Below, one piece after another: positions 3,490 to 46,624 of a DNA stretch of 64,000 nt. Source of the stretch: Elusimicrobiota bacterium (lineage in GTDB: Bacteria; Elusimicrobiota; UBA8919). Made by a program: the position numbers and the translations under genes. Location of the stretch: positions 122,400 to 186,399 of the forward strand of contig JBBAAR010000001.1 of assembly GCA_041658185.1 (NCBI GenBank), read 5' to 3'. The stretch's first letter is position 1. The number at the start of each line of letters is the position of its first letter. The notes under the pieces are model-generated. The model saw nothing but the letters and a program-made list of their open reading frames with translations. It was not told the DNA's origin and made no database searches.

Positions 3490-3510
3490 ATTAGAACCAG
3501 TGATAACGGC

Positions 3511-17670: not shown

Positions 17671-19256
17671 TTTATCTTTCCCGTTAACAAAAATCTTTTT
17701 GTGTAATCGTCAACCGTCTCCAGATTTATGCGGGGATAATCCACATCCTCTGCGACATGAAAATGCCTGTCTTCAAGGGTGTTTCTTCTCATAAAATACT
17801 GGGCTGAAATATCCCAATCAATAATCCAAATCTTAAAACCCGCACCGCCGGAAACAGCCACCGTCTGGGAACCCTTTCTTGAATAATCCGGAAGATACGC
17901 AATCCCGTACCTGAAAATAAAATCCCTTCTTACCTTATGACGGGCGCCGGCCTGCCAGGACAATGTATCTGCCCACCCGAGGTTTGTCCAGACGCCGCCG
18001 GTAGCTTTCACCCGGGCTGCAGACCACTTTGTGTGAATAAAATCAAATGAAAATGTCGGCTCACTGACACCCGGAAATTTGAAGGTCAACCCGTAAGATA
18101 TCGCCGAAGGATATTCGTATTGATATTTGATATTTGTTAAAGTTGCCGCACCTGATATATTGTTTTCCAAGTTTGTTTTTAACTTATCCTCAATCTCTTT
18201 TTCCGGACGATACGAAACGCCTATTTTAGTTCTCGGGGTTACTTCATATGATGCTCCGATAAGATACAGCGAACCGCTTATTGAATGAGTCGTCGTTGTT
18301 GATATGTCCGCGATTATTTGTCCCCTGTTTGAAAGGAGTGTCCCGTAGTCAATCTCCTCAATTTTGCCCTCCGGCTCACCGTATAAATTCCATAATGATA
18401 TGCCTATTGCAAGAGGTTCAACCGGATAATAATTCAACCCTCCGCCGATTGCATAAATCAACCCCCGGGATGTAATTTTATTTGTTTCGGTGCGCTGGGT
18501 TGACGAGTAATTGTTCTCCTCATAAAAATAGTTGAAATCGCTTAGTTCCGTTTCACACACTGCAACCGAAAGTTTGTTTTTTATTACCGGCTGGGAAATC
18601 CCGATACCTGAAAACCGGCCGAAAGAATTCTTGTTCGGCACGGTGGTACCGGCAGAATCATTTCTAACTTTTCTTCCATAAATTGAAAGAAGACCGCCGG
18701 ATAAAACAAACTGTCCGTTGTCAACGGAAATAGTCGCCGGATTTATAAAGACAGATGCCGGCTCATCATTAACAGAAACAGCAGTGCCGCCGGCCGCCGC
18801 AGATGCCGCCGTAAAACCTACCGCATTATCGCCTAACTGTAAAAACGACCCGCGATAGGTGTAGGAGTAAAGAAAGGTTAAAGGTATAAGGTTTAAGGTT
18901 AAAATTAAAATAAGAGCAGAGCGGATTTTTTTGACGGTAGATGTAAAAATACTTATCAGTTCATCTGTTTCTGCAAACAAGTTTTTTACATCTTCTTTTT
19001 GAACTAATCCAGCACCAAGTAATAATCTTAACCAATATCTTGTTTCATTTGCTTCTTTGCGTGAAATGTTTATACTATGAGAAAAATCCTTTCTTGTTAA
19101 TCCGGAATACGCTTCTTCAATATTCGCTCCGACTGATGTACCTGAGCGAAGTATTTGGTCACCCAAAGTTTTGGCTATCTGGTTTTGGGGTAATTTCTGC
19201 ACCAGTTTTATTATTTGTAAAGCGAATTTATAAGTCCGTTCTTTTAAATTCTGCAT
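17664..19256 (-). CDS. in-frame fusion ORF: N-terminal four-helix-bundle protein (23S rRNA IVS protein family) + FadL/PorV-like OM beta-barrel
   Basis: Residues 1-113 (ERTYKFALQII...SGTSVGANIEEAYSG...RKEANETRYWLRLL) match the TIGR02436/PF05635 four-helix-bundle family. The ORF then continues without a stop into a repeat-B-encoded signal peptide (SALILILTLNLIPLTFLYS) and a barrel with NPATI and a C-terminal ...GKIKW. Confidence 0.55.
   Translation of the reverse strand: MQNLKERTYKFALQIIKLVQKLPQNQIAKTLGDQILRSGTSVGANIEEAYSGLTRKDFSHSINISRKEANETRYWLRLLLGAGLVQKEDVKNLFAETDELISIFTSTVKKIRSALILILTLNLIPLTFLYSYTYRGSFLQLGDNAVGFTAASAAAGGTAVSVNDEPASVFINPATISVDNGQFVLSGGLLSIYGRKVRNDSAGTTVPNKNSFGRFSGIGISQPVIKNKLSVAVCETELSDFNYFYEENNYSSTQRTETNKITSRGLIYAIGGGLNYYPVEPLAIGISLWNLYGEPEGKIEEIDYGTLLSNRGQIIADISTTTTHSISGSLYLIGASYEVTPRTKIGVSYRPEKEIEDKLKTNLENNISGAATLTNIKYQYEYPSAISYGLTFKFPGVSEPTFSFDFIHTKWSAARVKATGGVWTNLGWADTLSWQAGARHKVRRDFIFRYGIAYLPDYSRKGSQTVAVSGGAGFKIWIIDWDISAQYFMRRNTLEDRHFHVAEDVDYPRINLETVDDYTKRFLLTGKIKW
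18872..18912. repeat. repeat family B forward arm
   Basis: aaggttaaaggtataaggtttaaggttaaaattaaaataag. Confidence 0.6.
18915..19256 (-). other. four-helix-bundle (IVS-protein family) module nested between the two arms of a family B repeat
   Basis: Occupies exactly the space between the inverted arm (19258-19305) and the forward arm (18872-18912). Confidence 0.6.
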
Positions 19257-19257
19257 A

Positions 19258-19305
19258 TTTTAACCTTTAACCTTTTATTTATACCTTTTATTTATACCTT
19301 TAACC
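19258..19305. repeat. repeat family B inverted arm
   Basis: ttttaacctttaaccttttatttataccttttatttatacctttaacc, followed by a perfect hairpin ccgacgc-taaa-gcgtcgg at 19306-19325. Confidence 0.6.
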
Positions 19306-19324
19306 TCCGACGCTAAAGCGTCGG

Positions 19325-20566
19325 CTACCATTTATATCCTACCGTTGACAAAAGTTTTAACCGGCTTTCAACCACATCGTCAAATCCGGTTAATTGCTGC
19401 GAAATCCTTTCTTGCGTTGATTGCCTCCACGCATATTCTCCCGCCACATCAACAATAGCCCGTCCCACAATAATTCCCAATCCGAATGAAACGGAAGGCA
19501 GCGCTTCCGACGGATTCGGGTAATCCGGCAGATACGAAAAACCGTACCGTAAAGTTGTTTTTTGCGACGGCGAATGTTCTAATCCCAAATGATATTCCCA
19601 TACATTTTTATACAATGGATTTTTTTTGTCTTTCGTTTGTTTTACATTGTTGAGTTTGGTTATCCAGTATCTGGAATCCCCCCAGTTTGAAAAAATCGCA
19701 TCAAAAGTTATTTTTGAATCGTTACTGTCTTTGAAATTATAATTCGCGCCGAAGCCCAGATTATACGGCATTTCAAATATGGAATCGGTGGCGGTAAAAA
19801 CACTGCCGGTACTGTCTTTATCATTTACTTTCAGAGCAAAATTTGAACGATACGCGAGCCCGAAATTAAATTTATCCTCATATATAAAATTACCGCCGAA
19901 AATGAAACTGTCGCCCGTCAGCGTCTGGTAGTCGGATGTCTTCTTAGGCAAAGCACCCGTCTGTAAGTATGTGTAGTCGGTTAGGTTTTCACCTCTTCCC
20001 CAAAGATATGTAAATCCCATAGATACCCAGTCAGCCATCACCCAATTCATACCCAGCGCCCAATTGTGAAACCCGCCCGCTTTTTCAATTATGTCGTTTG
20101 TACCGGCCGAAGTATCCGCTTCCTCAAAATTGTAGTCGGAGTTCAAGTCGGAAAAAAAGCCGAAACCAAAAACAACATCGTTCCTTTTTGACGCAGACCA
20201 TAAAATTGATGCGGAAGGCATTTGAAAATACAGGTTATCCGTTGTTACATAATCGGTGCTCAAATAAGAATGATTCCTTTTGTCAAAAAACAAAACAAGC
20301 CCCGGCGAAACATTTGCAAGACCCTTTTGCCCGGCGTCAAGTTTCATCAGCGAAGGATTGGCGTATAATGATGAGGATTCATTATTAGAGGCAACACCGG
20401 CGCTGCCAAGTGCTAACGAACGGGCCGAAAGTCCGCGTACCGGCTCACCCAGGTTCCAGTAAGAATCAAGGGAAGAATAGCCGGAAAGGAAGGTTAAAGG
20501 TATAAATAAAAGGTATAAATTAAGGCAAATAACTTTAATAATATGATTTTTAATTTTCAATTCCAT
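19325..20566 (-). CDS. FadL/PorV-like outer-membrane beta-barrel protein
   Basis: Signal peptide LNLYLLFIPLTFLSG (from repeat B), GSAGVASNNESSSLYANPS hatch motif, and a C-terminal ...GYKW. Confidence 0.55.
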   Translation of the reverse strand: MELKIKNHIIKVICLNLYLLFIPLTFLSGYSSLDSYWNLGEPVRGLSARSLALGSAGVASNNESSSLYANPSLMKLDAGQKGLANVSPGLVLFFDKRNHSYLSTDYVTTDNLYFQMPSASILWSASKRNDVVFGFGFFSDLNSDYNFEEADTSAGTNDIIEKAGGFHNWALGMNWVMADWVSMGFTYLWGRGENLTDYTYLQTGALPKKTSDYQTLTGDSFIFGGNFIYEDKFNFGLAYRSNFALKVNDKDSTGSVFTATDSIFEMPYNLGFGANYNFKDSNDSKITFDAIFSNWGDSRYWITKLNNVKQTKDKKNPLYKNVWEYHLGLEHSPSQKTTLRYGFSYLPDYPNPSEALPSVSFGLGIIVGRAIVDVAGEYAWRQSTQERISQQLTGFDDVVESRLKLLSTVGYKW

Positions 20567-20600
20567 AATTTTAACCTTAAACCTTATACCTTTAACCTTT
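20489..20600. repeat. repeat family B copy
   Basis: aaggttaaaggtataaataaaaggtataaattaaggc...ttttaaccttaaaccttatacctttaaccttt. Confidence 0.65.
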
Positions 20601-20605
20601 CCCCT

Positions 20606-22681
20606 CTACCATTTATAATCCACCCTTACTTCCCACTTATTGCCGTAGCCCGGGTCAACCGTATTATAATACTCGTCGTTGAAAAACTCATCCGCCGACC
20701 ACTTGTATTTATCTGTGAACCTCATTTTTATCTTAGCGTATCTTGAAAGTTTGTCGGTTACCTGAAGCCAGAACTGACGGGACTCCTTCCCGCTTTTTCT
20801 TAAATCACTATCGGCAAACTTTAACTCGCCTGCAATTTCAAGGTTTCCTGTTATATCATATGTGGTGCGGGTAGTCACTTCATCCTTTGGAAGATATAAA
20901 GTCGGGGTACCGGCATAATCTTCTATGTATTTGTATTTTATAAGCAAATCGCTTACTTTTGAAGGTCTGAATTTCAACTGGAAATTAGTGGTCACCGTCA
21001 TTTTTTCCGAATACTCCACATTTTTGTAGATGTCCTTGTCTTTCCATTTCCTATCGATTTGAATATTCACTCCCCGTGGGAGTTTCCAATTGTATTTCAG
21101 GTAAATCTCCCTGTCAGTAGTGGGCGTTTCATAGATGGTATAATACAGACCGGTGACCGTATCCTTTTGGGTTTTTGCAATGTGGTTGAACTGGTCAACA
21201 TAAAATTTCAGTTTCATCGTCCGTGTTAGTTTTGAGTTAAACTCAATGTAATCGCCTTGCTCGTCGCGGTCACGGAACCTTGTTTTATCGGTATGTTTTG
21301 AATAACCCCGCGCCCACGGGTTGTAAAAATCAATATCGTAATCACGGCGAGAATAAATCATATCAATTTTGCCCATTTTTTTGAATGTTTTTATGTACCA
21401 GGCATTGCCCCAGCCGTGAACCTTTGCCATCTCGCCCGCTATATTAAAACCCTTGTAACCGGTTACGAAATTAGTTCCATAGACGGCAAACGATTGTTCC
21501 GGCGGCCAGCGCCAAATTTGTATGTCCGTATCGGAAAATGTTGCCTCTCTTTTTGAAGTGTAGACCGTGCCGCCGATATAAGTCGCATCAATATTAGGTG
21601 TGGCATCCGCTAATTTATATGTCAAATTACTTCCCACAAGCGTTTCCTCATAGACATCTTCAAGCGTGACATAATGAAGCGCACCGTCATCCATTTTAAC
21701 ATATGTCTTGAACGCATAACCGCCTTTTGAATAAAACTCCGTCAAATCAAACCGGCCCTGCTTCATCCGTGCGCCGAAGCCCTTTAATTGCTGTTGGGTT
21801 GAACCCAGCGTATATTTGTCTTGTAAGACGATATTACCTCCGGACAAACTGTAAATACTTGTCTGCGTCTCTTTTGAATATGTATCGTCGGGATAAAGTC
21901 CCTGGGGCGATGATTTTCCGGACGTATCAAATACAAGCCGCTGTCCGAAGCCCGCCCGGAAATTGCCGAGATACGCCTGCTCTATAACGGGTCCCTTTTC
22001 ATAGCCGATGTATGATTTGTTGAGACGATAACCGTGTTCAAACTCGCCGCCGGTAATGTCCCTTGTGTAATAATAATTGACGTACCTGACGTCGCCTTCT
22101 ATAATTGCCCCGAAATTCATATATCTTCCGAACTTCAATAGCCGCAGGCGGAACAAGTCATATGTCCTCGGATAGTCGGTCGTTGCCATTTCCACTTCCA
22201 AGTTTGATTTGGTCCTGAACACGATATCCCCTTTTGTTTTTATTTTTTCCGGCTGCTCGGCGGCAATAAAAATTTTTATATTTTCGTAAGCCACGTCGTC
22301 TATAATCTCCGGGTTGATTAAATCCTTTATATCTTTGTAATAGCCGTGTTTTAGACGGTAATTTACTATTTTTGAGGCATCCGGAGCGGTTAAACCTGGT
22401 AACGACTGCAGCTGGAAAACATCGGCAGTATTTATGTCAATTTTGTCGTCATAGATAGCTAAAAGATTCTCATATGTTTCATACTCAATATCTCCGTCCT
22501 GATACGCCTGTTCAATATCCGAGTCGCTTTCCCACTGGGAAGTATCGTCGGGATCATCCTCGGCGGAATGGAGAAAGGTTAAAGGTTTAAATAAAAGGTA
22601 TAAATTAAAGGTATAAATTAAAAGAAGGGAAAAAATTTTAAATCTTGGCGCCGTTTTTTTATTGTTATTTTTTTCGTCCAT
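20606..22681 (-). CDS. large OM beta-barrel protein with N-terminal (periplasmic) ComEA-type helix-hairpin-helix DNA-binding domain
   Basis: After the signal peptide, DINTADVFQLQSLPGLTAPDASKIVNYRLKHGYYKDIKDLINPEIIDD is a ComEA HhH repeat (approx. 22276-22440). About 550 beta-rich residues follow, ending ...VRVDYKW. Confidence 0.6.
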   Translation of the reverse strand: MDEKNNNKKTAPRFKIFSLLLIYTFNLYLLFKPLTFLHSAEDDPDDTSQWESDSDIEQAYQDGDIEYETYENLLAIYDDKIDINTADVFQLQSLPGLTAPDASKIVNYRLKHGYYKDIKDLINPEIIDDVAYENIKIFIAAEQPEKIKTKGDIVFRTKSNLEVEMATTDYPRTYDLFRLRLLKFGRYMNFGAIIEGDVRYVNYYYTRDITGGEFEHGYRLNKSYIGYEKGPVIEQAYLGNFRAGFGQRLVFDTSGKSSPQGLYPDDTYSKETQTSIYSLSGGNIVLQDKYTLGSTQQQLKGFGARMKQGRFDLTEFYSKGGYAFKTYVKMDDGALHYVTLEDVYEETLVGSNLTYKLADATPNIDATYIGGTVYTSKREATFSDTDIQIWRWPPEQSFAVYGTNFVTGYKGFNIAGEMAKVHGWGNAWYIKTFKKMGKIDMIYSRRDYDIDFYNPWARGYSKHTDKTRFRDRDEQGDYIEFNSKLTRTMKLKFYVDQFNHIAKTQKDTVTGLYYTIYETPTTDREIYLKYNWKLPRGVNIQIDRKWKDKDIYKNVEYSEKMTVTTNFQLKFRPSKVSDLLIKYKYIEDYAGTPTLYLPKDEVTTRTTYDITGNLEIAGELKFADSDLRKSGKESRQFWLQVTDKLSRYAKIKMRFTDKYKWSADEFFNDEYYNTVDPGYGNKWEVRVDYKW

Positions 22682-22715
22682 ATTTTAACCTTTAATTTAT
22701 ACCTTTAACCTTATT
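22574..22715. repeat. repeat family B copy
   Basis: aaaggttaaaggtttaaataaaaggtataaattaaaggtataaatt...tattttaacctttaatttatacctttaacctt. Confidence 0.65.
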
Positions 22716-24330
22716 TTATCTCTATATTATCCTTTACTTCATCAATTATATCCGCAGATATGCCCGGAACTTTTTTCAAATCATCTACCGCCGGCATCGG
22801 GCCGTTTTTCTTAATATATCTTAAGATATTTTGTGATTGCACAGTCGTAAATCCCAAATCCCGCAGTTGAGACATATCCGCTTTGTTGATGTTTATCTTC
22901 CCTGACGGAATCGATTCCTCCGGCGCCGGTGCCGGTTCAACTTTCGGTTTCGTTGCCGGAGTAGGTAGAACTTTAGGAGCAGGGGGGACAACCTTTGGCA
23001 CAACCGGGGGCGGTGTCACTTCCGACTTCCCGCCCGCCGCAGGTGCTTCCGGCTCTTCCGCATCCGGCTGGGGCTCTTCATTTTCATCTGAAACGGTCGG
23101 TTTAGCAGGAACTGGTTTTTCACTTTCTTCCACTTTTTCTTCACTTTTTTTCACCGGTTCTTCCTTCTGCCTCTCCTCCACCGTTATCAGTCCTTCAATT
23201 TTTGAATAAACCCTTCTTGACATCCTCGGAACATTTAATATATCCTCAATTGAGTTGAATTGCCCTTTTTCACCGCGGTAATCAACAACCCGTTTTGCCA
23301 TCACTTTGCCCATACCCGGAAGTTCCGCTATCTCATCCGAGGATGCAGTATTTATATTGACTTTTCCGGCAGGACGAACCGCTTCCTCCGTCACCTGTCC
23401 CTCGGCCTTCCGCCCGTCTACCCTCTTCCTGGTTGTCCTTGCCGCCTTTTTCGTCTTCGGAGCATATTTAATGGTCGCCTCTTGCTCGCCGCCCCATTTC
23501 ATAGAAAGTGAAACTACATGCATTGCATCAAGCGTGGCGTGGGAAGAATAGCCGTAATCAAAATAAACCGTTTTATAATTTGTTCCGAAACCAAGAGCAT
23601 ATTTTGAAGGATTTGTCTGAAGACCCGTGCGAAACACGAAAAAATCGGTGAGACGGAATTCCGTTCCGATGTGGACGGCGACCGGTTCGTCTATTATTTT
23701 CTCAAAATCCATCGCAAAATTCAATCCCGGAAGAGGTCTGTAAAAAATCCCGGTTAAAAATTCTTCCGTCAGATTTTCATTCCCTTTTGATATCTCCGGC
23801 TCGTTTATGTTTTTGGCGGAAACACCGAGGGCAAAGTCCCCTGAAACCCTTGCCAGAACGCCCAAATCCAGCCCGAATGCGGAATCACTGCCATATTCCT
23901 TGATTTTTATACCCATTGATTTCAAGTTATATCCGAACATTATTCCTTCCGCCAGCCCGAAGCCGTGAGAAAAAATTAAAACGCTTTCTTTGTATTCGGA
24001 GGGACCGAAATCTGAATATAAAAAACCGATGTCGCCGTAGCCCTGAACGGGAAATGCGAATTTTACATTGGTATAACCCAGCCCTTCAACGCCATAAATA
24101 TTCGTATATGTTGAGGCGAACTGGAACGCGGGTATCAGACGCAATCCCGCCGGGTTATAGTCAATAGCGTTGGTGTCGTTGGAAAAACCTACGAAAGCCC
24201 CGCCCATCCCGATAGGTCTTGCCGAGGCGGGTTTTTGCTCAAAAGCAGGGTAGAGCGGAGAGCATAGAGCATAGAGCATAGTAAAAAAGAGCATAGAGCA
24301 TAGAGCGTAGAAAGATTTTTTTGAAAACAT
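22711..24330 (-). CDS. FadL/PorV-like OM beta-barrel fused to two C-terminal ComEA-type HhH domains separated by a Pro/Lys-rich spacer
   Basis: N-terminal PASARPIGMGGAFVGFSNDTNAIDYNPAGL barrel motif. HhH-1 is VNINTASSDEIAELPGMGKVMAKRVVDYRGEKGQFNSIEDILNVP (approx. 23178-23358). A PVK/E-rich linker of about 90 aa follows (approx. 22905-23177). HhH-2 is ININKADMSQLRDLGFTT...LKKVPGISADIIDEV (approx. 22714-22903). Confidence 0.7.
   Translation of the reverse strand: MFSKKSFYALCSMLFFTMLYALCSPLYPAFEQKPASARPIGMGGAFVGFSNDTNAIDYNPAGLRLIPAFQFASTYTNIYGVEGLGYTNVKFAFPVQGYGDIGFLYSDFGPSEYKESVLIFSHGFGLAEGIMFGYNLKSMGIKIKEYGSDSAFGLDLGVLARVSGDFALGVSAKNINEPEISKGNENLTEEFLTGIFYRPLPGLNFAMDFEKIIDEPVAVHIGTEFRLTDFFVFRTGLQTNPSKYALGFGTNYKTVYFDYGYSSHATLDAMHVVSLSMKWGGEQEATIKYAPKTKKAARTTRKRVDGRKAEGQVTEEAVRPAGKVNINTASSDEIAELPGMGKVMAKRVVDYRGEKGQFNSIEDILNVPRMSRRVYSKIEGLITVEERQKEEPVKKSEEKVEESEKPVPAKPTVSDENEEPQPDAEEPEAPAAGGKSEVTPPPVVPKVVPPAPKVLPTPATKPKVEPAPAPEESIPSGKININKADMSQLRDLGFTTVQSQNILRYIKKNGPMPAVDDLKKVPGISADIIDEVKDNIEIK
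24251..24312. repeat. repeat family C forward arm
   Basis: agagcggagagcatagagcatagagcatag...agagcatagagcatagagcgtag; encodes the YALCSMLFFTMLYALCS signal peptide. Confidence 0.65.
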
Positions 24331-24331
24331 T

Positions 24332-24700
24332 TTAATTCTCCTTCAACTTTTTCGTCATTGAATTTATCAGTCCGTTTAACATCTTGGAAATTTCTTCAAG
24401 TTCTTCATATAATTTTCTAAATTCTTGGTGTTCTAAATACTTTTGACCTAATGCTACTTCAAGCAACGGAACACATTCATATGCAGAACCTTTCGCTATT
24501 CTCAAAAACTGGATATATTCTTTTCTGGAATATCTACCATTACCCTCAGCAATATTTGCGGCAATAGAAACAGATGCTCTCCGAAGTTGGTCGGTTAATC
24601 CGAAACATTCTTTTTTAGGAAAATTTGCAGACACTTTATAAATCTCATTTGCAAAGCTCATAGATTTTTTATATACCGTCAAATTTTCAAAATCAAACAT
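24332..24700 (-). CDS. four-helix-bundle protein, 23S rRNA intervening-sequence protein family (TIGR02436-like)
   Basis: FGLTDQLRRASVSIAANIAEGNGRYSRKEYIQFLRIAKGSAYE matches the family signature. Start preferred at the ATG at 24700 (MFDFENL). The stop codon lies 1 nt from the start codon of the following barrel gene. The gene is nested between family C repeat arms. Confidence 0.7.
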   Translation of the reverse strand: MFDFENLTVYKKSMSFANEIYKVSANFPKKECFGLTDQLRRASVSIAANIAEGNGRYSRKEYIQFLRIAKGSAYECVPLLEVALGQKYLEHQEFRKLYEELEEISKMLNGLINSMTKKLKEN

Positions 24701-24702
24701 AT

Positions 24703-24730
24703 CTACGCTCTGTCCTCTACGCTCTCTGCC
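24703..24730. repeat. repeat family C inverted arm
   Basis: ctacgctctgtcctctacgctctctgcc. Confidence 0.55.
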
Positions 24731-24731
24731 C

Positions 24732-27056
24732 TTACATTTTTCTTCCCACCACAATTCTTTTTGAGGATGTTTTTGCGGCGCCGGTTGTTTTATCCAAGGA
24801 CTCAATGTTGACTATGTAGATACCGGTTCTGACTATGTTGCCGTCATCGTCTTTGCCGTCCCAAGTGACGGTAGCGGCTGCGCCGCCGCCGTCGGAATGG
24901 TCAAGAAGTATCCTAACCTGATGCCCGGAAACATCAAAAACCCTCATCGTTATTTGGCTGTTCGCGGGGACAAGATATGCTATTTTTGCCTGACTGTAAG
25001 TTCCGTCTTTATAAGGTGAAAACGGCGACTGGAAGACCTCCATCGTCTTTGTCGTAGTAATCAGCGTTCCGCCGTAATCGCCGTAGCCGGGAGTTGTTGA
25101 ACTTTCCGACCAGTCGGCTTTTGTATCTGTGTCCATCGGTGCGAGTGTGGCTGTGGTAGCAAGACGGTACATTGATTTTGAAGTTGAACCGCTCCACGCA
25201 AAAGAACCGGCGATATATCCTGCCTCATCCGTTGCCTCCGGCGACCACTTGCCCGCCGTAAAAGCGGCATCATATGCCGCCGTAGCTCCGGTATAACTCG
25301 TATCGCTGTTGGCAAAACTCATAAAATCAACAATCGTATCATCGGCATTTTTTAGCGAGATGTTGTTGTCCGTTCCGGTTAAACCCGGGGACGTCTCGTC
25401 CGAGAATAAATCAATATAGCCGCTGGCGTTTTCGTCGGCAGCCGTTTCGTCGCGGGTCTCACCTCTGATACCTGTCGCGCTATTTCCCTTGGATGCCCAT
25501 AGAACTATAAACTTATCTTTTGCGATAGTTCCCATATCGCCGGGGAATGTCTTAATTAAAGTCGTGCCCTCGTATATTTTTACGCTGCTGACATCAGCAG
25601 AGGCGGCAGTAACAAAAATCTCAATAAAATCACCGCCTGAAATTCCGGGCGCAACTTCAGTAATTTTTCCGGTTATAGAACCTGTTCCGCCGGAGGCGGT
25701 AGCGCTGGAAACAAGCCTTCCCAGATTTCTGTCAGCATACCCCAACCAGTCGGATTTTGCATTTGTTGTATCAACCGGAACGCCGTACTCGCTGGTTCTG
25801 CGATTAAGCGTTATTTTGGTGTCCATTAAACCCGCGGTATTGTCCACGGAATTTACCTCGTGTTCCGACACTGAAGTAGCCGCAGGCACCCACTGATTTA
25901 AAACGACCGCCGCATCATACTCTACGTCATAATCAAACTGACCGTCAACTTTGGCAAAAGGGACAAAATCAATCATTGTGCCGGCGGCATTTTTGAGAGT
26001 TAATGTATTCTCGGTAGCGACAATTGTTATGGCGGAAAAAAAGTCCCATTGCCTGTTTCCAAATGCGTTGATGATTGGAACAGCAGCGTTTGTGCCTGAC
26101 TTAAAATGTGCAATTATGTAATCCCCGGAACTTACTGCCACTGACGGAAAAGTGAAAGTCCCTGAATTTGAAACCGCAATCGCGCAACCGCCGATATTTG
26201 CGGTTGATTCAATAACATAAAGTTCCACCGCATCATAGTCACCGCTACTTGACTGGCCCGCATCTATTTCGGTTATAACCGCTTTTATTGAACCGGTACC
26301 GCCGCCGGCGCCGCCGGTATTTACGGCTCCGGGAGAAGTTGACGGTTGAATAGACCAGTCGGATTTTGCCGTTCCGGTATCGTCAGTATCCGTTGAACTT
26401 GAGTCCCTACCAAATGATTTTCCGACAGCGATACTGCCTGAAGCTACACAATCCGCTTGGCCGCTTCCCGTCCATTGAAATTCGGCGACGGCATTATTTA
26501 ACGCTGTGTTGTTGGCGGTTGTCCAAGTCGCATCCTGGTTGGCAAAAGCCATTGCATCTATCGCATCCGGCGTATTGGCGGCATTTCTTAATGTTAAAAC
26601 AGCATCCGTATTAACCAAACTGGGATCTGCCGTATAAAAATCCCAGACATTGTTTGCACCTTTGCCGGAAATGTCATCTTCGCTATTGCTGGTGCCTTTG
26701 ACGCCAAAATGAAGAAGGATATAATCGCCGACACCCGCCGTAGTAAATAAATTAGGAAATGTTTTATTGGCAACGGTTGCCCCCGTACCAGCTACCACCC
26801 AGGTACTTCCCTGAATTATAGCGGAACCTTCCTGCAACACAAGATTTGAATAATTGCCTGCAACGGCGACATAAAACTCTATCCATTCGGCGCCGGCTGC
26901 TTCGGCCGGTGCGACCTCGTTTATCATTATCGGTGATGCGGAAAAAACGAATCCGCAAATGCCGAGAAATAAGGATAAAGTTAAGATAAAAAATCTCTGC
27001 CCGCCAGAGGCGGATTTCGCCCCACAGGGACTTCCGTTGGTCGCTTTTTTCAGCAT
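24732..27056 (-). CDS. secreted surface protein with three lamin-tail-domain (LTD) repeats and T9SS-type C-terminal sorting domain
   Basis: LTD signatures MINEVAPAEAAGAEWIEFYV, ITEIDAGQSSSGDYDAVELYV and ITEVAPGISGGDFIEIFV. C-terminus ...GIYIVNIESLDKTTGAAKTSSKRIVVGRKM is T9SS-CTD-like. Confidence 0.6.
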   Translation of the reverse strand: MLKKATNGSPCGAKSASGGQRFFILTLSLFLGICGFVFSASPIMINEVAPAEAAGAEWIEFYVAVAGNYSNLVLQEGSAIIQGSTWVVAGTGATVANKTFPNLFTTAGVGDYILLHFGVKGTSNSEDDISGKGANNVWDFYTADPSLVNTDAVLTLRNAANTPDAIDAMAFANQDATWTTANNTALNNAVAEFQWTGSGQADCVASGSIAVGKSFGRDSSSTDTDDTGTAKSDWSIQPSTSPGAVNTGGAGGGTGSIKAVITEIDAGQSSSGDYDAVELYVIESTANIGGCAIAVSNSGTFTFPSVAVSSGDYIIAHFKSGTNAAVPIINAFGNRQWDFFSAITIVATENTLTLKNAAGTMIDFVPFAKVDGQFDYDVEYDAAVVLNQWVPAATSVSEHEVNSVDNTAGLMDTKITLNRRTSEYGVPVDTTNAKSDWLGYADRNLGRLVSSATASGGTGSITGKITEVAPGISGGDFIEIFVTAASADVSSVKIYEGTTLIKTFPGDMGTIAKDKFIVLWASKGNSATGIRGETRDETAADENASGYIDLFSDETSPGLTGTDNNISLKNADDTIVDFMSFANSDTSYTGATAAYDAAFTAGKWSPEATDEAGYIAGSFAWSGSTSKSMYRLATTATLAPMDTDTKADWSESSTTPGYGDYGGTLITTTKTMEVFQSPFSPYKDGTYSQAKIAYLVPANSQITMRVFDVSGHQVRILLDHSDGGGAAATVTWDGKDDDGNIVRTGIYIVNIESLDKTTGAAKTSSKRIVVGRKM

Positions 27057-27173
27057 TTCACCCTCCGAAAACTCTATATATTAAAAAGCAAGTTAAAAGT
27101 CAAAAATCAAAAGCAAAAAACAGTGCATATTTTTCACCTTCAATTTTTAACCTTTAACTTTGAACCTTCTATT

Positions 27174-27791
27174 CTATTCTTCTTCCGATGACTCGCTTGC
27201 GGATGTTTTGTATTTATCCATAAGCGCTTTTTCCACGGCGTCTTTCAGTTTTTTATTTGTGATTAAAATCTGTTTTACCCATTTGCCGCCGCCTTCGGGT
27301 TTTCTTGAAGGCCACGAAATCCAGGGACCTTTTCCGCTTTCCATCAATTTGCATTCAATCCGGACGGCATTATTGAAATCAACCGCAGCAAAAACTTTTA
27401 ACGCTGATGCACGGGTAAATCTTGAATATTTTGATATTTTGTATGAAATTTGTTTTGACGCTTTTGCCGACGGTTTTCCTGATTCAACCGCCTTTTCTAT
27501 CTCGTCCTTCGCCTGTTTCGTAAGCGTCTCAAACTGCGGATATTCTTTGCCTGCTTTTGAAACATATGTCGGATATTTAAGAGAGATGCGACCGCCGACC
27601 TTAATCACCTGAATCTCTTTTACCTTGATGCAGTCGTTGAGAACAATCGTTGCCATTTCCTTTACCGCACCGCCGTCCTCTACCGGCGCCTTTTCAACGC
27701 TGGTTACATAAATTTCGTCAGCCGCAAAAACCGGAACTGCAAACGAAACCGCTAAAAGACAACCCAACAATAAACCAAAAACTTTACGCAT
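27174..27791 (-). CDS. secreted protein with two tandem SpoVG-like domains
   Basis: Signal peptide MRKVFGLLLGCLLAVSFAVPVFA. Both repeats match the SpoVG pattern (repeat 1 IVLNDCIKVKEIQVIKVGGRISLKYPTYVSKAGKEYPQF; repeat 2 AVDFNNAVRIECKLMESGKGPWISWPSRKPEGGGKW). Confidence 0.5.
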   Translation of the reverse strand: MRKVFGLLLGCLLAVSFAVPVFAADEIYVTSVEKAPVEDGGAVKEMATIVLNDCIKVKEIQVIKVGGRISLKYPTYVSKAGKEYPQFETLTKQAKDEIEKAVESGKPSAKASKQISYKISKYSRFTRASALKVFAAVDFNNAVRIECKLMESGKGPWISWPSRKPEGGGKWVKQILITNKKLKDAVEKALMDKYKTSASESSEEE

Positions 27792-27807
27792 TTTTGCCTC
27801 CCCTTAA

Positions 27808-27892
27808 CACCAGCGAATTAGAGAATTAGAGAATTAGAGAATTAGTCAAGCAATATCTAATTCTCTGTCGTTTAAACTAATTCTCTTTCGTA
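27808..27892. repeat. repeat family D copy
   Basis: aacaccagcgaattagagaattagagaattagagaattag...aattctctgtcgtttaaactaattctctttcg. Confidence 0.65.
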
Positions 27893-27896
27893 TAAA

Positions 27897-29447
27897 CTAT
27901 TTTACAACCAACTTCCCTTTTATCTGATTCAATCTTGCAGCAGTAATTCCCTGTACTTCCAATAAATCCTCAACCTTCTCAAATCTTCGGTTTTTTCTGT
28001 AATTGACAATGCTCCTCGCCTGAATCCAGCTGAACCCTGCATCGTGAAGAACATCAACATTCGCAGTATTTATGTCCGTTAGGGACGAGCGGAGAGCAGG
28101 GAGCGGAGTTTCTGTCTTCTGTCCTCTATCCTCTATCCTCTGTCCTTTCATTTTCTGTTTCGCCTGTTCAATCTTATTTTTTGATTCTTTATGGTTCGGG
28201 TCAATTTTCAAAACCTCTTCCCATCCGGCAATCGCAAGTTCGTATTCGCCATTCTGGTAGTGTTTGAACGCGGCATCGTAACGCTGTTTTTTAAACTCCG
28301 ATTTTTCCTGCTCGGTTAATTCTTTCGGTTTTTTCTCTTCCGTAACCGCCGGGGGCTTACTTGTAACTGCCGGCGGACGAACGGGAGAAGGCATCGCCGG
28401 AATAATCATCCCCTCATCTTTTGCCTTTTGCTCTTTCCTCTCTAACTTCTTTTTATCTTTTTTCGGCATTGAATACCTGAATGTCAGAGACAGCCGGTGG
28501 CTTCCTGATGTATCCGCCAATTGCAGCGGGAGCAAAAACGCATAGTCAAGTTGCAACCCGGACTCTTTGAACATTTTATTATACGAAAAACCAAGCGAGA
28601 GTTCCCTGTCGTTTCCGCCGAAACGGGCAGCCCAGGTATTGTAATTAAACCATGTCTCAACACCGCCGGAAATTTTCATATCGGCATCGTTATCGGCAGG
28701 TTTTCTGTAAGAGACATCAACCGTAGGGGTGATATTTTCAAAAAACTTCCAGTCGCCGATGCGATAGGCAGTTCCGAATTTTACAATCATCGGGACTTTA
28801 TCCTCGGTTTTAAGTCCTACATCCGGTTGTAAAATATTTAACGCCGAAAGTCCGAATGAAAAATCGGACGGTTTCAATAAAAATCCTATGTCCGGAGTAA
28901 ATCCGCCCGCGGATGTTTTGTCAAACACCGGGTCGGCGATATTTTTTGTTCTGTCATCAAGCGTATAAGAATGCGTAAGATATTTCAAGTTAAGACCGGC
29001 CATAAACGGAAATCTTATGCCGAGAGAGGAAGCAATATCGCATGAATAACTTGCCGAAATCGTGTTCTCCCTGTAAAATCCCCATAGTGCAAAATCGGTT
29101 ATTGTAAATCCAAAAGCCCCTATTTCCGTCGGATAAACTCCGGCTGCAAACATCTGGGAGAGATTTACATCATCAATTCCCATAAAAAGTTTGTTGTACA
29201 TAAATGTCGTTTCCAGCATTTCAAGTTGAGCAATTCCCGCGGGATTCCAAAGCGTTGCCGCCGGCTCGTTGGCAATAGCGGTAAATGCGTTGCCCATTCC
29301 GCCCGCACGGGTCCCCCAGCCGGTATCCTGGAAAGCGGCAAAAGACAGTGAACAAAAGTGAACAAAAGTGAACAAAAGTGAACAAAAATAAATGCTTTTT
29401 TTCACTTTATTCCAATTATTTTTTCTCTGGTTTAATATTTTAATCAT
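27897..29447 (-). CDS. FadL/PorV-like OM beta-barrel + TPR-like segment + C-terminal ComEA-type HhH domain
   Basis: N-terminal TRAGGMGNAFTAIANEPAATLWNPAGI barrel motif, a TPR-like stretch (YDAAFKHYQNGEYELAIAGWEEVLKIDPNHK), and a C-terminal DINTANVDVLHDAGFSWIQARSIVNYRKNRRFEKVEDLLEVQGI ComEA HhH. A family C repeat lies inside the coding region at 28084-28150. Confidence 0.65.
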   Translation of the reverse strand: MIKILNQRKNNWNKVKKSIYFCSLLFTFVHFCSLSFAAFQDTGWGTRAGGMGNAFTAIANEPAATLWNPAGIAQLEMLETTFMYNKLFMGIDDVNLSQMFAAGVYPTEIGAFGFTITDFALWGFYRENTISASYSCDIASSLGIRFPFMAGLNLKYLTHSYTLDDRTKNIADPVFDKTSAGGFTPDIGFLLKPSDFSFGLSALNILQPDVGLKTEDKVPMIVKFGTAYRIGDWKFFENITPTVDVSYRKPADNDADMKISGGVETWFNYNTWAARFGGNDRELSLGFSYNKMFKESGLQLDYAFLLPLQLADTSGSHRLSLTFRYSMPKKDKKKLERKEQKAKDEGMIIPAMPSPVRPPAVTSKPPAVTEEKKPKELTEQEKSEFKKQRYDAAFKHYQNGEYELAIAGWEEVLKIDPNHKESKNKIEQAKQKMKGQRIEDRGQKTETPLPALRSSLTDINTANVDVLHDAGFSWIQARSIVNYRKNRRFEKVEDLLEVQGITAARLNQIKGKLVVK

Positions 29448-29510
29448 TGTTTCTTAACTTCCTTTCACTTTCTTCCACTTTCCTTCACTTCCTTTCACTG
29501 TCCCATCACT
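29345..29510. repeat. repeat family A copy (arms about 60 bp apart)
   Basis: gtgaacaaaagtgaacaaaagtgaacaaaagtgaacaaaaataaatgc ... cctttcactttcttccactttccttcacttcctttcactg. Confidence 0.7.
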
Positions 29511-36378: not shown

Positions 36379-36464
36379 TGCGGGTTTCTTAAAACGACAA
36401 TTTATATTTTTGTGCTTTTTTACTTTTTCCGTTTTTCACTTTACCGTCGGTAGAACAAAACCTA

Positions 36465-36525
36465 TTCAACTGGTTTCGCAACTACGGAAGTAGTTGAATA
36501 CTGACTCAAAAAAAATATAGCGCAA
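36465..36525. repeat. REP-like palindromic element (GTAGTTGAAT family)
   Basis: aacctattcaactggtttcgcaactacggaagtagttgaatactg, with a caactac-GGAA-gtagttg hairpin; just downstream of the 36593..37582 gene. Confidence 0.6.
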
Positions 36526-36592
36526 AGAACCAATCACATTTTTATTATTTTGCTTTTGCCAAAATTAAGTATACCATAAAAATCCAATCTTG

Positions 36593-38496: not shown

Positions 38497-38505
38497 TTAT
38501 AGTCG

Positions 38506-38605
38506 GTAAAACAAAACCTATTCAACTACTTTCGTCCCTAAAGGGATTTCCTTCGGTCACAACTACGAAACTACGGAAGTAGTTGAGTGCTTATTAAAAA
38601 AATTA
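38506..38605. repeat. REP-like palindromic element (GTAGTTGAAT family, with CCCTAAAGGGA and CTTCGGTC submotifs)
   Basis: aacctattcaactactttcgtccctaaagggatttccttcggtcacaactacgaaactacggaagtagttgagtgc. Confidence 0.65.
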
Positions 38606-39532: not shown

Positions 39533-39544
39533 TTTTTCTATTTT

Positions 39545-44256: not shown

Positions 44257-44258
44257 TA

Positions 44259-44942: not shown

Positions 44943-44944
44943 TT

Positions 44945-46560: not shown

Positions 46561-46624
46561 AATACCTCCGTTAATTTTTTTCTGGATTTATTAAATCCGG
46601 CAATCGGCAAAAACCATGTTTCTG

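What the first reader, a model, noticed from the sequence alone, without database searches (positions are those of the whole stretch)
22883..23209. About 90-residue Pro/Lys/Glu-rich spacer between the two ComEA domains of the barrel protein 22711..24330
The linker (KEEPVKKSEEKVEESEKPVPAKPTVSDENEEPQPDAEEPEAPAAGGKSEVTPPPVVPKVVPPAPKVLPTPATKPKVEPAPAPEE) resembles the TonB/TolA type of extended periplasm-spanning spacer. It would let the distal HhH domain reach from the outer membrane to the inner-membrane ComEC. This supports a relay or ratchet model rather than a compact accessory domain.
Basis: inference. Interest (0 to 1): 0.5.

Follow-up and report, generated by a model that had tools for sequence, protein, structure and literature searches.

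The report
Variable floppy tether between DNA-binding domains
The proline-rich stretch is a real, disordered leash joining two ComEA-like domains that hang from an outer-membrane barrel protein, but relatives vary its length from 3 to 127 residues or lack it, so it is a loose tether, not a measured bridge to the inner-membrane DNA channel.

Summary
Gene 22711..24330 (minus strand, 539 aa, Elusimicrobiota MAG) encodes a signal peptide, a 14-strand PorV/FadL-like barrel, a basic 41-aa linker, a first ComEA-type HhH domain, a 92-aa Pro/Glu/Lys-rich linker (residues 385-476, window 22903..23178) and a second HhH domain. This linker is the most Pro-rich stretch in the window. AlphaFold2 scores it below pLDDT 50. 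It evolves fast but stays in frame and under mild constraint.

Among orthologs with both HhH domains the spacer is 34-127 aa. Among 48 barrel+2xHhH proteins in the wider family it is 3-127 aa (median 43). Two syntenic orthologs lack it: one ends after the first HhH domain and one is barrel only. None of the TonB/TolA features tested (inner-membrane anchor, motor genes nearby, TonB-type C-terminal domain) is present. The distal HhH domain lacks the lysine critical in ComEA.

The best reading is an OmpA-hinge-like flexible periplasmic tether of unconstrained length.

The larger story is the context. The gene belongs to a conserved cluster with an HhH-bearing barrel of about 26 strands, LTD surface proteins, a PLD nuclease, MBL proteins and a dedicated long ComEC.

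The parts
22711..24330 (-). [quoted passage not shown]
24247..24330 (-). Signal peptide (residues 1-28). Its coding DNA is a degenerate 7-bp tandem repeat (TAGAGCA x8.6, 24251..24311).
23491..24246 (-). N-terminal plug segment (conserved AFExKP...GMGGAF...NPAGL) plus a 14-strand PorV/FadL-like beta-barrel (residues 29-280).
   Evidence: AF2 model, (14 strands, 68-280). Foldseek: FadL 3e-10, PorV 8gl6_F 3.3e-10. NCBIfam PorV_fam 3.6e-15, sub-threshold.
23368..23490 (-). Linker L1 (residues 281-321): disordered and strongly basic, with a PK.KK.PR..RKR motif partly conserved in orthologs.
   Evidence: pLDDT<50; net charge about +5; identity 0.35, dN/dS 0.32-0.38
23179..23367 (-). HhH1 (residues 322-384): ComEA-type HHH_3 domain with basic hairpins (LPGMGKVMAKR; VPRMSRRVYSK).
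22903..23178 (-). Linker L2, the subject of the finding (residues 385-476, 92 aa). The N-terminal half is acidic and the C-terminal half is Pro/Val/Lys-rich. It is predicted disordered.
22714..22902 (-). HhH2 (residues 477-539): conserved but atypical 'GF-type' HHH_3 domain (L-GFTTVQ; VPGISADIIDE), net charge about 0.
22883..23209 (+). Antisense 108-aa TTG ORF whose limits equal the finding's coordinates. It gives a Gly/Ser/Phe low-complexity product and is not a gene.
   Evidence: The sense-frame constraint argues against it being coding.
20606..22681 (-). Adjacent, always co-occurring partner gene. It has an N-terminal helical segment and a ComEA-type HhH domain (residues about 53-138) followed by a beta-barrel of about 26 strands (151-689).
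   Evidence: synteny
27897..29447 (-). Paralogous design: a PorP/SprF-like barrel, then a basic/Pro-rich linker, TPR-like helices, and a terminal GF-type HhH domain (34% identical to HhH2).
24732..27056 (-). Upstream LTD (lamin-tail-domain) protein with a FlgD_ig/T9SS-like C-terminal domain. A surface-type protein (LTD or TP_1001_2nd) with this kind of tail sits upstream of the barrel gene in most related loci examined (not in L011).
9979..12867 (-). Long ComEC paralog (962 aa) at the downstream end of the cluster. It is orthologous to the ComEC at the end of the distant cluster L012.

Best explanation
Residues 385-476 are an intrinsically disordered, proline-rich, net-acidic tether. It connects two ComEA-type helix-hairpin-helix domains that hang from the periplasmic C-terminus of a 14-strand PorV/FadL-like outer-membrane barrel.

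The design is OmpA-like: a barrel, then a Pro-rich hinge, then periplasmic domain(s). The spacer works as a leash of unconstrained length. It decouples the distal 'GF-type' HhH module from the proximal, basic, probably DNA-binding HhH1, and it enlarges the volume the distal module can sample beneath the outer membrane. It does not act as a stiff, length-calibrated or force-transmitting span.

The protein is one subunit of a conserved gene cluster for handling extracellular DNA. The cluster holds a surface LTD protein, this barrel, a barrel of about 26 strands that also carries an HhH domain, a PLD nuclease, MBL proteins and a dedicated long ComEC. In this setting the tethered HhH domains most plausibly hold incoming DNA, or a partner protein, close to the outer-membrane entry site. 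That would make an outer-membrane-anchored version of the ComEA ratchet.

**Shown here:** the domain layout, predicted disorder, composition, the rate and length variability of the linker, synteny, and the ComEC linkage.

**Inferred:** the periplasmic location (from fold homology and loop parity), DNA binding, and the role in uptake.
For: - **Architecture.** Two HHH_3/ComEA matches plus a PorV-family barrel. The AF2 model has 14 strands and a FadL/PorV-like N-terminal plug segment. L1 and L2 have pLDDT<50 and both HhH domains about 90. Foldseek best matches are FadL and PorV.
- **Topology.** The strand count is even. Odd-numbered strand connections are longer (2, 4, 3, 16, 5, 2, 5 residues) than even-numbered ones (3, 2, 2, 2, 4, 2), as expected if both termini are periplasmic (derived).
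- **Linker evolution.** Identity to the window protein is 0.22 for L2, against 0.66-0.67 for the barrel, HhH1 and HhH2. dN/dS is 0.28-0.58 for L2, against 0.09-0.24 for the domains, and all indels are in frame.
- **Length.** 34-127 aa in orthologs. 3-127 aa, median 43, in 48 barrel+2xHhH family members.
- **Modular tail.** The family sample holds 48 barrel-only proteins, 42 with one HhH and 48 with two. Many barrel-only members end exactly at the last strand with ...KF...NF or ...RF, the classical outer-membrane-protein C-terminus.
- **Complete orthologs without the spacer** are verified on long contigs.
- **HhH2 conservation and type.** HhH2 is as conserved as HhH1. It is closer to the terminal HhH of the PorP-like paralog (34% identity, E 2e-12) than to HhH1 (25%).
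- **Cluster conservation, including the long ComEC.** A 34%-identical ortholog locus keeps the cluster: ComEC 37% identity (E 6e-105), PLD 36%, MBL 42%, PorV-like barrel 37%.
- **Precedent for flexible ComEA linkers** whose length can be changed with graded effect: PMC9747964, PMC13168374.
Against: - No experiment locates the tail or shows DNA binding.
- Within the window protein's own clade every ortholog with both HhH domains keeps a spacer of at least 34 aa. Some minimum length may therefore matter locally.
- An acidic patch (EDEEPQPDAEEPE) is conserved in the close clade. Nearly all long linkers are net acidic (-2 to -33). This hints at a function beyond passive tethering.
- HhH2 lacks the key ComEA lysine, so describing the tail as two DNA-binding domains may be wrong.
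- The AF2 model is built from a shallow alignment of 19 sequences (pTM 0.49 for the whole chain).
Confidence: 0.6

Rival explanations
1. The spacer is a TonB/TolA-like extended polyproline span. It lets the distal HhH domain cross the periplasm from the outer membrane to the inner-membrane ComEC and hand DNA over (a relay).
For: - The Pro-rich C-terminal half has PxP/PxxP spacing typical of PPII. It follows an acidic half, like the E. coli TonB charge pattern (PMC12204202 for TonB features).
- The contour length is sufficient: 92 aa gives about 28 nm as PPII, and L1 plus the two domains add more.
- A dedicated long ComEC is a conserved member of the cluster.
- HhH2 is strongly conserved (dN/dS 0.10-0.24). 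A related GF-type HhH sits at the end of another long linker in the PorP-like paralog, as if both reach for one target.
Against: - Length is unconstrained: 34-127 aa in orthologs, 3-127 aa in the family.
- Syntenic orthologs lack the spacer and HhH2, or both HhH domains.
- The expected relaxed end-to-end distance of a 92-aa coil is about 6.6 nm. Typical diderm periplasms are about 20-25 nm wide (own knowledge).
- There is no inner-membrane anchor, no motor genes nearby and no TonB-type C-terminal domain.
- HhH2 has Gln, Asp and Glu at ComEA positions K164, K193 and K197, so its DNA carriage is doubtful.
Confidence: 0.15
2. The spacer is an acidic regulatory IDR. It folds back electrostatically on the basic L1/HhH1 segment (a DNA mimic giving auto-inhibition), or it repels the anionic envelope. 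This would tune DNA affinity or release rather than distance.
For: - Charge segregation along the tail: L1 about +5 and HhH1 +2, followed by L2 at -9, with the first 46 residues at -10.
- Nearly all long linkers in the family are net acidic, from -2 to -33, whatever their Pro content (2-35%).
- An acidic island is conserved while its flanks drift.
Against: - Short-linker family members (3-17 aa) have no acidic bias and presumably still work.
- AF2 shows no confident contact between L2 and HhH1.
- Acidic bias is common in periplasmic disordered linkers generally (own knowledge).
Confidence: 0.15
3. The stretch is not a real protein feature. It would be a low-complexity assembly artefact, a frameshifted junction of two genes, or the antisense ORF 22883..23209 would be the true gene.
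For: - The coordinates coincide with an antisense ORF.
- GC content is 52% in the stretch against 41% in the window.
- A weak 21-bp repeat lies at 23114..23163.
Against: - The same reading frame continues into a conserved HhH2 in 16 of the 19 aligned homologs from independent assemblies, and in 48 family members in all.
- Indels are multiples of three, and dN/dS is below 1 in the sense frame.
- The GC excess follows from Pro, Ala and Glu codons.
Confidence: 0.02

Closest known systems
ComEA (competence DNA receptor; TIGR00426/PF12836 HhH domain)
   Same: - Both C-terminal domains match ComEA HhH models and the solved ComEA structures 8dfk and 8dss.
- They are probably periplasmic and are genomically linked to ComEC.
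- Gram-positive ComEA also carries its HhH domain on flexible linkers, and that linker length can be altered with graded effects (PMC9747964, PMC13168374).
   Different: - Known ComEA is either a free single periplasmic domain (Gram-negative bacteria) or is anchored in the inner membrane by an N-terminal TM helix with an oligomerisation domain (Gram-positive bacteria).
- Here two HhH domains are fused to the C-terminus of an outer-membrane beta-barrel, and there is no oligomerisation domain.
- HhH2 lacks the conserved Lys (K164 in B. subtilis, K63 in V. cholerae), which is Gln here.
- Scores are below the NCBIfam full-length ComEA cutoff (81 bits against 152).
OmpA-type architecture (N-terminal barrel, Pro-rich hinge, periplasmic C-terminal domain)
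   Same: An outer-membrane barrel is followed by a disordered, Pro/Ala-rich hinge and then a globular periplasmic domain. The barrel's closing strand, which is the C-terminus in barrel-only relatives, is internal here.
   Different: - The barrel here is a 14-strand FadL/PorV type, not an 8-strand OmpA barrel.
- The periplasmic domains are HhH modules, not the peptidoglycan-binding OmpA_C domain.
- The hinge is about 5 times longer than the roughly 15-20-aa hinge of E. coli OmpA (own knowledge).
TonB/TolA domain II (periplasm-spanning Pro-rich or helical spacer)
   Same: It is of similar size (about 100 aa) and Pro-rich, and in this protein an acidic segment precedes a Lys/Pro segment as in E. 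coli TonB (PMC12204202).
   Different: - It is anchored in the outer membrane, not the inner membrane.
- No N-terminal TM anchor for an SHLS motif to sit in, no ExbBD/TolQR genes nearby, and no TonB_C or TolA_III domain. A motor box was not searched for.
- Its length is not conserved.
- The resemblance is compositional, not homologous.
PorV/PorQ (T9SS) and FadL family barrels
   Same: It is a 14-strand barrel with an N-terminal plug-like segment. Foldseek gives PorV 8gl6_F E 3.3e-10 (TM 0.59 on the target) and FadL E 3e-10. Neighbouring genes encode proteins with T9SS-like C-terminal domains.
   Different: - The match is below the NCBIfam PorV_fam cutoff (56 bits against 90).
- The barrel is smaller (about 250 aa) with very short loops.
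- No PorV in the searched literature carries HhH domains.
- No core T9SS genes (SprA, PorKLMN) were seen in the window.
Riemerella anatipestifer transformation genes (outer-membrane barrel RA0C_RS04915, surface protein RA0C_RS04920, 3xHhH protein RA0C_RS02645)
   Same: The parts list is similar: an outer-membrane barrel, a surface protein and a multi-HhH protein act together with ComEC, and no pilus gene was among the essential hits of that screen (PMC8459023).
   Different: - In Riemerella the HhH protein and the barrel are separate polypeptides.
- The phylum is different.

Membership tests
ComEA-type HhH domain (PF12836 HHH_3 / TIGR00426) | Sequence match above the curated threshold to the ComEA HhH repeat region | tested here: met
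   PF12836: 106.6 bits against a cutoff of 27, two stretches. TIGR00426: 79.1 bits against 53.1, two stretches. PDB ComEA 8dss/8dfk: E 1e-9 for HhH1 and 3e-4 for HhH2.
ComEA protein (functional DNA receptor, TIGR01259) | Full-length ComEA architecture and score | tested here: not met
   TIGR01259 scores 81.4 bits against a cutoff of 152.35. The architecture is an outer-membrane barrel fusion, not a free or inner-membrane-anchored protein.
ComEA protein (functional DNA receptor) | Conserved DNA-contact lysine in the first hairpin (B. subtilis K164 / G. stearothermophilus K166 / V. cholerae K63) | tested here: not met
   By the HMMER alignments this position is Gln in HhH2 (GFTTVQ; Gln in 15 of the 16 aligned homologs that have HhH2) and Met in HhH1. 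HhH1 does have K342, K346 and R347 flanking the position. Residue roles are from PMC9747964.
ComEA protein (functional DNA receptor) | Binds dsDNA non-specifically in the periplasm | not testable with these tools
   This needs EMSA and localisation experiments.
TonB/TolA periplasmic force transducers | N-terminal inner-membrane TM helix with an SHLS motif that binds an ExbBD/TolQR motor | tested here: not met
   The N-terminus is a cleavable-type signal peptide followed by an outer-membrane barrel. No ExbB/ExbD/TolQ/TolR Pfam hits appear among the window ORFs scanned. Feature list from PMC12204202.
TonB/TolA periplasmic force transducers | Globular TonB_C / TolA_III C-terminal domain | tested here: not met
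   The C-terminal domain is HHH_3, with no TonB_C or TolA hit at E<=0.01.
TonB/TolA periplasmic force transducers | Domain II long enough to span the periplasm, with length maintained | tested here: not met
   The spacer is 34-127 aa in orthologs and 3-127 aa in the family, and it is absent in syntenic orthologs.
PorV/PorQ family (NF033709) / FadL-like 14-strand barrels | 14-strand barrel fold with an N-terminal plug | tested here: met
   The AF2 model has 14 strands. Foldseek: FadL 3e-10, PorV 3.3e-10.
PorV/PorQ family (NF033709) / FadL-like 14-strand barrels | Sequence score above the curated family cutoff | tested here: not met
   PorV_fam: 56.4 bits against a cutoff of 90. Pfam TraF_2: 25.2 bits against 25, borderline.
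PorV/PorQ family (NF033709) / FadL-like 14-strand barrels | Works with a T9SS translocon and binds cargo C-terminal domains | not tested
   Neighbouring proteins have FlgD_ig/Por_Secre_tail-like C-terminal domains. No SprA or PorKLMN was seen in the window, and the rest of the genome was not available.

The most novel reading that the evidence does not exclude
The linker is a minor part of an undescribed Elusimicrobiota apparatus for taking up extracellular DNA.

The proposed parts are as follows. Surface LTD/TP_1001-type proteins with C-terminal sorting domains and a PLD nuclease capture and cut DNA. A barrel of about 26 strands with an N-terminal ComEA domain serves as the outer-membrane DNA conduit, in place of a secretin and pilus. 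A PorV-like barrel tethers one or two ComEA-type domains beneath it as an outer-membrane-anchored ratchet. MBL nucleases and a dedicated long ComEC paralog then complete import, possibly for nucleotide salvage as much as for transformation.

In this reading the variable spacer sets how far the distal GF-type HhH module can fish for DNA or for a common partner.
Probability: 0.3. Interest if true: 0.75.

Novelty: new variant of a known kind. Interest (0 to 1): 0.35.

Why it matters
Taken alone, the spacer is an ordinary disordered hinge, and showing that its length is unconstrained removes a tempting 'molecular ruler' story.

The architecture it belongs to is more informative. The ComEA forms described in the papers read here are either free in the periplasm or anchored in the inner membrane. 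An outer-membrane-barrel-anchored, sometimes tandem, ComEA would be a third solution to the same problem of keeping DNA from sliding back out.

This gene always pairs with an HhH-bearing barrel of about 26 strands, and it is linked across deep divergence to a PLD nuclease, MBL proteins and a dedicated ComEC. No pilus or secretin gene lies inside the core cluster, although two Tad-type pilus genes lie just downstream of it. Together these features point to a candidate DNA-uptake route in an uncultivated phylum that does not depend on a secretin. That is testable by heterologous expression and by structural work.

Tried and rejected
- **Assembly artefact or antisense gene.** Rejected. The frame is kept across independent assemblies, indels are in frame, and dN/dS is below 1.
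- **TonB/TolA membership.** Rejected. The anchor, nearby motor genes and C-terminal domain are all absent, and the spacer length is not kept.
- **Length conservation as evidence for a ruler.** Tested and failed.
- **Truncated orthologs as contig-end or frameshift artefacts.** Checked at the DNA level. P0017 has a clean stop after HhH1, and the next ORF is an unrelated coiled-coil protein. P0015 stops after the barrel and overlaps the start of the next gene.
- **Literature search for a described PorV-ComEA or barrel-ComEA fusion, or for Elusimicrobia competence.** Nothing relevant was found.
- **Genome-contig scan.** It gave only 5 loci, of which 3 were useful.
- **The listing of cluster members for taxonomy of the distant family members.** It returned almost no names. 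Only Elusimicrobiota was confirmed, for P0041.
- **Foldseek on the ~26-strand neighbour.** It gave only generic large-barrel matches (ushers, MtrB, LptD) with TM 0.3-0.43, so no family could be assigned.
Full report
**1. The observation**

The ORF 22711..24330 on the minus strand encodes 539 aa, and the quoted peptide is present. The finding's coordinates, 22883..23209, correspond to residues 374-483. They coincide exactly with a 108-aa antisense TTG ORF on the plus strand. That ORF is a by-product of the Pro/Glu/Lys codons and not a gene.

The layout of the protein is as follows.

| Residues | Window coordinates | Element |
|---|---|---|
| 1-28 | 24247..24330 | Signal peptide |
| 29-280 | 23491..24246 | Plug segment and barrel |
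| 281-321 | 23368..23490 | Basic linker L1 |
| 322-384 | 23179..23367 | HhH1 |
| 385-476 | 22903..23178 | Linker L2, the subject of the finding |
| 477-539 | 22714..22902 | HhH2 |

- Pfam HHH_3 matches twice (E 7e-31), and NCBIfam's ComEA HhH models match twice.
- The barrel gives a sub-threshold PorV/PorQ-family match and a borderline TraF_2 match.
- The two HhH domains are 25% identical to each other (E 3e-8).
- Both HhH domains hit the solved ComEA structures 8dfk and 8dss.

L2 contains 24% Pro, 23% Asp+Glu and 13% Lys+Arg, and it has no aromatic residues. It is by far the most P/E/K-rich and most Pro-rich 90-residue stretch among the 45 large ORFs of the window. Given the local 3.9% Pro background, the probability of 22 or more Pro in 92 residues is about 7e-12.

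**2. The linker is real, coding and disordered**

The protein is 100% identical to an NCBI Elusimicrobiota MAG protein, and 20 further homologs were found.

- In 16 of the 19 aligned homologs the reading frame continues through a variable linker into a well-conserved HhH2.
- Codon alignments against three close orthologs from independent assemblies (L008, L009, L010) show only in-frame indels.
- dN/dS is 0.28-0.58 for L2 and 0.32-0.38 for L1, against 0.09-0.13 for the barrel, 0.16-0.17 for HhH1 and 0.10-0.24 for HhH2.
- Mean identity to the window protein is 0.22 for L2, against 0.66-0.67 for the three folded parts.

AlphaFold2, run on the 19-sequence alignment, gives pLDDT below 50 for almost all of 386-475 and for 284-320. 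It gives about 90 for both HhH domains and for most of the barrel. An assembly artefact and an antisense gene are therefore excluded.

**3. Where the tail sits**

The model has 14 strands (residues 68-280), preceded by the conserved N-terminal segment AFExKP..GMGGAF..NPAGL. The best structural matches are FadL (E 3e-10) and the T9SS protein PorV (8gl6_F, E 3.3e-10, TM 0.59 on the target).

An even strand number puts both termini on the same side of the membrane. In FadL and PorV that side is the periplasm (established knowledge for that fold). The odd-numbered strand connections (2, 4, 3, 16, 5, 2, 5 residues) are longer than the even-numbered ones (3, 2, 2, 2, 4, 2). This is the usual pattern of long outside loops and short periplasmic turns when the N-terminus starts in the periplasm (derived).

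The periplasmic location of the tail is therefore inferred, not shown.

**4. Test of the 'periplasm-spanning ruler' idea**

They do not.

- Among the 16 aligned homologs with both HhH domains, L2 is 34-127 aa.
- A profile search of 1.84 billion representative proteins found 1,583 hits at E<=1e-30.
- I classified the best 150 of these, plus the first set, with local HMMs for the barrel, HhH1 and HhH2. The result was 48 barrel-only proteins, 42 with one HhH and 48 with two.
- In the 48 two-HhH proteins the inter-domain spacer runs continuously from 3 to 127 aa (median 43, interquartile range 13-70). The window's 92 aa is the third longest.
- Many barrel-only members end precisely at the last strand with ...KF...NF or ...RF, the classical outer-membrane-protein C-terminus. 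The HhH tail is therefore an optional add-on.

Two syntenic orthologs on long contigs were checked at the DNA level.

- P0017 (L001, 61-kb contig) has a clean stop five residues after HhH1. It is followed by an unrelated coiled-coil ORF.
- P0015 (L002, 22-kb contig) stops after the barrel, and its stop overlaps the start of the next conserved gene.

Polymer estimates give the physical picture.

| Quantity | Estimate |
|---|---|
| L2 fully in PPII form (contour) | about 28 nm |
| Whole tail (L1 + HhH1 + L2 + HhH2), contour | about 40 nm or more |
| L2 as a 92-residue disordered chain, end-to-end | about 6.6 nm |
| Typical diderm periplasm width (own knowledge) | about 20-25 nm |

Reaching the inner membrane is therefore possible only near full extension. 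Orthologs with spacers of 34-47 aa would have far less reach.

**5. Comparison with TonB/TolA**

The defining features listed in PMC12204202 are:
- an N-terminal inner-membrane helix with an SHLS motif that engages ExbBD or TolQR;
- a motor box;
- a domain II of about 100 residues;
- a globular TonB/TolA C-terminal domain.

Here the anchor is an outer-membrane barrel and the C-terminal domain is HhH. No motor genes appear among the window ORFs scanned. I did not search for a motor box.

The acid-then-basic Pro-rich pattern does recall E. coli TonB. The same paper notes that this pattern is confined to a few proteobacterial orders. The resemblance is compositional only.

**6. What the distal domain might do**

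HhH1 carries net charge of +2 to +6 in most homologs and has basic residues around both hairpins (LPGMGKVMAKR; VPRMSRRVYSK). HhH2 is neutral to slightly acidic in most homologs (-3 to +1) and has the conserved hairpins L-GFTTVQ and VPGIS.DI(V/I)DE.

I mapped both domains onto the lysines tested in ComEA (PMC9747964), using the HMMER alignments.

| ComEA lysine (B. subtilis numbering) | HhH2 | HhH1 |
|---|---|---|
| K164, essential and the most conserved | Gln | Met |
| K193 | Asp | Arg373 |
| K197 | Glu | Lys377 |
| K199 | Lys | Glu379 |

HhH1 has Met at the K164 position, but Lys342, Lys346 and Arg347 flank it. HhH2 is nevertheless as conserved as HhH1.

HhH2 is more similar to the terminal HhH of the PorP/SprF-like paralog 27897..29447 (34% identity, E 2e-12). 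In that paralog the domain also sits at the end of a long basic/Pro-rich linker.

A 'GF-type' distal HhH module is thus a recurring unit in this locus. Whether it binds DNA or a protein partner is open.

**7. Context**

The gene order is conserved across six loci from other assemblies (L001, L002, L005, L008, L010, L012). L009's contig ends just past the barrel gene. L011 keeps the barrel pair and the downstream barrels but has a DnaE gene upstream in place of the surface protein. In the direction of transcription the order is:
- an LTD (or TP_1001_2nd) surface protein with a FlgD_ig/T9SS-like C-terminal domain;
- a small variable insert (23S-rRNA-IVP four-helix protein, Y1 transposase or GIY-YIG);
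- the barrel-HhH gene;
- a 670-720-aa protein;
- FadL/BamG-like barrels.

The 691-aa neighbour (20606..22681) was modelled with AF2 (pLDDT 77, pTM 0.74). It has an N-terminal helical segment and an HhH domain, followed by a barrel of about 26 strands. Foldseek finds only generic large translocation barrels: FimD/PapC ushers, MtrB and LptD, with TM 0.3-0.43.

A distant ortholog locus, L012 (P0019, 34% identity), keeps the wider cluster:
- an fn3/LTD-like giant protein;
- a PorP-like barrel, here without an HhH domain;
- SpoVG;
- a PLD nuclease with a C-terminal sorting domain (36% identity to the window's copy);
- a PorV-like barrel (37%);
- an MBL protein (42%);
- a surface protein;
- the barrel-HhH-L2-HhH gene;
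- the HhH-bearing large barrel;
- a FadL-like barrel;
- a protease;
- a long ComEC.

That ComEC is orthologous to the window's 962-aa ComEC (37% identity, E 6e-105). It is only 27% identical to the canonical ComEC at 50515..52746. The link between these HhH-bearing barrels and a dedicated ComEC is therefore conserved, which supports a DNA-handling role.

The window also holds nucleoside-salvage genes: adenosine deaminase, purine nucleoside phosphorylase and a DHH phosphoesterase. No pilus or secretin gene lies within the core cluster. A Tad-type ATPase and a CpaB homolog lie downstream of it, at 1348..4322.

**8. Most likely mechanism**

L2 is a flexible, disordered periplasmic tether of the OmpA-hinge kind. 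It links a probably DNA-binding proximal ComEA domain to a conserved distal HhH module, and its length is free to vary.

It most plausibly increases the search volume and the independence of the distal module beneath the outer membrane. That would make the protein an outer-membrane-anchored counterpart of the ComEA ratchet, working beside the ~26-strand barrel. Confidence is about 0.6 for 'loose periplasmic tether, not a ruler'.

The rivals are:
- an acidic regulatory or auto-inhibitory IDR (0.15), suggested by the near-universal net negative charge of long linkers (-2 to -33) opposite a basic L1/HhH1, and by the conserved EDEEPQPDAEEPE island;
- an artefact (0.02).

**9. Known relatives and novelty**

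Flexible linkers next to ComEA domains are known. Their length has been manipulated in B. subtilis: a shortened linker reduced transformation 220-fold and a doubled linker 3.2-fold (PMC13168374).

In the ComEA literature read here, ComEA is free in the periplasm in Gram-negative bacteria and anchored in the inner membrane in Gram-positive bacteria (PMC9747964). I found no paper describing a ComEA domain fused to an outer-membrane barrel.

The nearest functional precedent is the Riemerella transformation gene set of an outer-membrane barrel, a surface protein and a 3xHhH protein (PMC8459023). In Riemerella these are separate polypeptides, and no homology was tested here.

The linker itself is ordinary. 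The architecture is a new variant of a known kind.

**10. Verdict**

Interest is 0.35 for the finding as posed. The surrounding cluster deserves more attention. The novel reading is a secretin-independent DNA-uptake apparatus, with probability about 0.3 and interest about 0.75 if true.

Noticed in passing
window 24251..24311; 16224..16308; 1325..1345; 28122..28135: A 7-bp tandem repeat (TAGAGCA, 8.6 copies at 24251..24311) forms the signal-peptide coding region of the barrel-HhH gene. It recurs at the 5' end of the M6 protease gene and at two other sites (12 matches against 0.25 expected). The unit length is not a multiple of 3, so this is a candidate slippage or phase-variation tract.
   Followed up: partly
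window 22579..22623 and 22690..22708; 20494..20525; 19272..19303; 9020..9051: A 13-bp tandem unit (AAAGGTATAAATT) encodes the hydrophobic core of several signal peptides ('FNLYLLF'). A perfect 19-nt inverted copy lies in the intergenic DNA between the two barrel genes and brackets the start codon of 20606..22681 (10 matches against 0.12 expected). It may form an RBS-sequestering hairpin or act as a phase-variation element.
   Followed up: partly
window 20606..22681 (-): This 691-aa protein has an N-terminal ComEA-type HhH domain followed by a predicted beta-barrel of about 26 strands (AF2 pLDDT 77, pTM 0.74). It lies next to the barrel-HhH gene in every related locus whose contig extends that far. 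Structural matches are only to generic large translocation barrels (ushers, MtrB, LptD). It is a candidate outer-membrane DNA conduit.
   Followed up: partly
window 9979..41430 (-) and locus L012 1..20907: A cluster of about 30 kb is conserved with a 34%-identical relative. It contains a PLD nuclease with a C-terminal sorting domain, a PorV-like barrel, MBL proteins, LTD/fn3 surface proteins, a PorP-like barrel, SpoVG, the barrel-HhH pair, FadL/BamG-like barrels, a protease with a C-terminal sorting domain, and a dedicated long ComEC (37% identity, E 6e-105).
   Followed up: partly
window 9979..12867 (-) and 50515..52746 (+): There are two ComEC paralogs in one window. One is a 962-aa form with no Pfam Lactamase_B hit. 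The other is a canonical 743-aa form with DUF4131, Competence and Lactamase_B domains.
   Followed up: partly
window 24332..24805 (-); 17664..19256 (-): 23S-rRNA-IVP four-helix-bundle proteins occur here. One is a small ORF wedged between the LTD gene and the barrel gene, and its TTG start overlaps the end of the LTD gene. The other is fused (or mis-joined) to the N-terminus of a FadL-like barrel. In orthologous loci the same intergenic slot holds an IVP gene, a Y1 transposase or a GIY-YIG gene, so it behaves as a variable insertion hotspot.
   Followed up: no
window 27897..29447 (-): This PorP/SprF-like barrel carries a basic/Pro-rich linker of about 60 aa, a TPR-like helical pair and a terminal GF-type HhH domain that is 34% identical to HhH2. 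Its distant ortholog in L012 (316 aa) has the barrel only.
   Followed up: partly
window 23368..23490 (-), residues 281-321: The proximal linker L1 is strongly basic, with a partly conserved PK.KK.PR..RKR motif (identity 0.35, dN/dS about 0.35). It could itself contact DNA or the inner leaflet of the outer membrane.
   Followed up: no
window 43222..50429 (-): A set of nucleoside and nucleotide salvage genes lies next to the cluster: adenosine deaminase, purine nucleoside phosphorylase, a DHH/DHHA1 phosphoesterase and two AP_endonuc_2 TIM-barrel proteins. This suggests that imported DNA may be used as a nutrient.
   Followed up: no
window 1348..4322 (-): A Tad/Flp-type secretion ATPase fused to a ParA/MinD-like domain, and an RcpC/CpaB homolog, lie downstream of the ComEC, UvrD and PD-(D/E)XK genes. 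These are the only pilus-related genes seen in the window.
   Followed up: no
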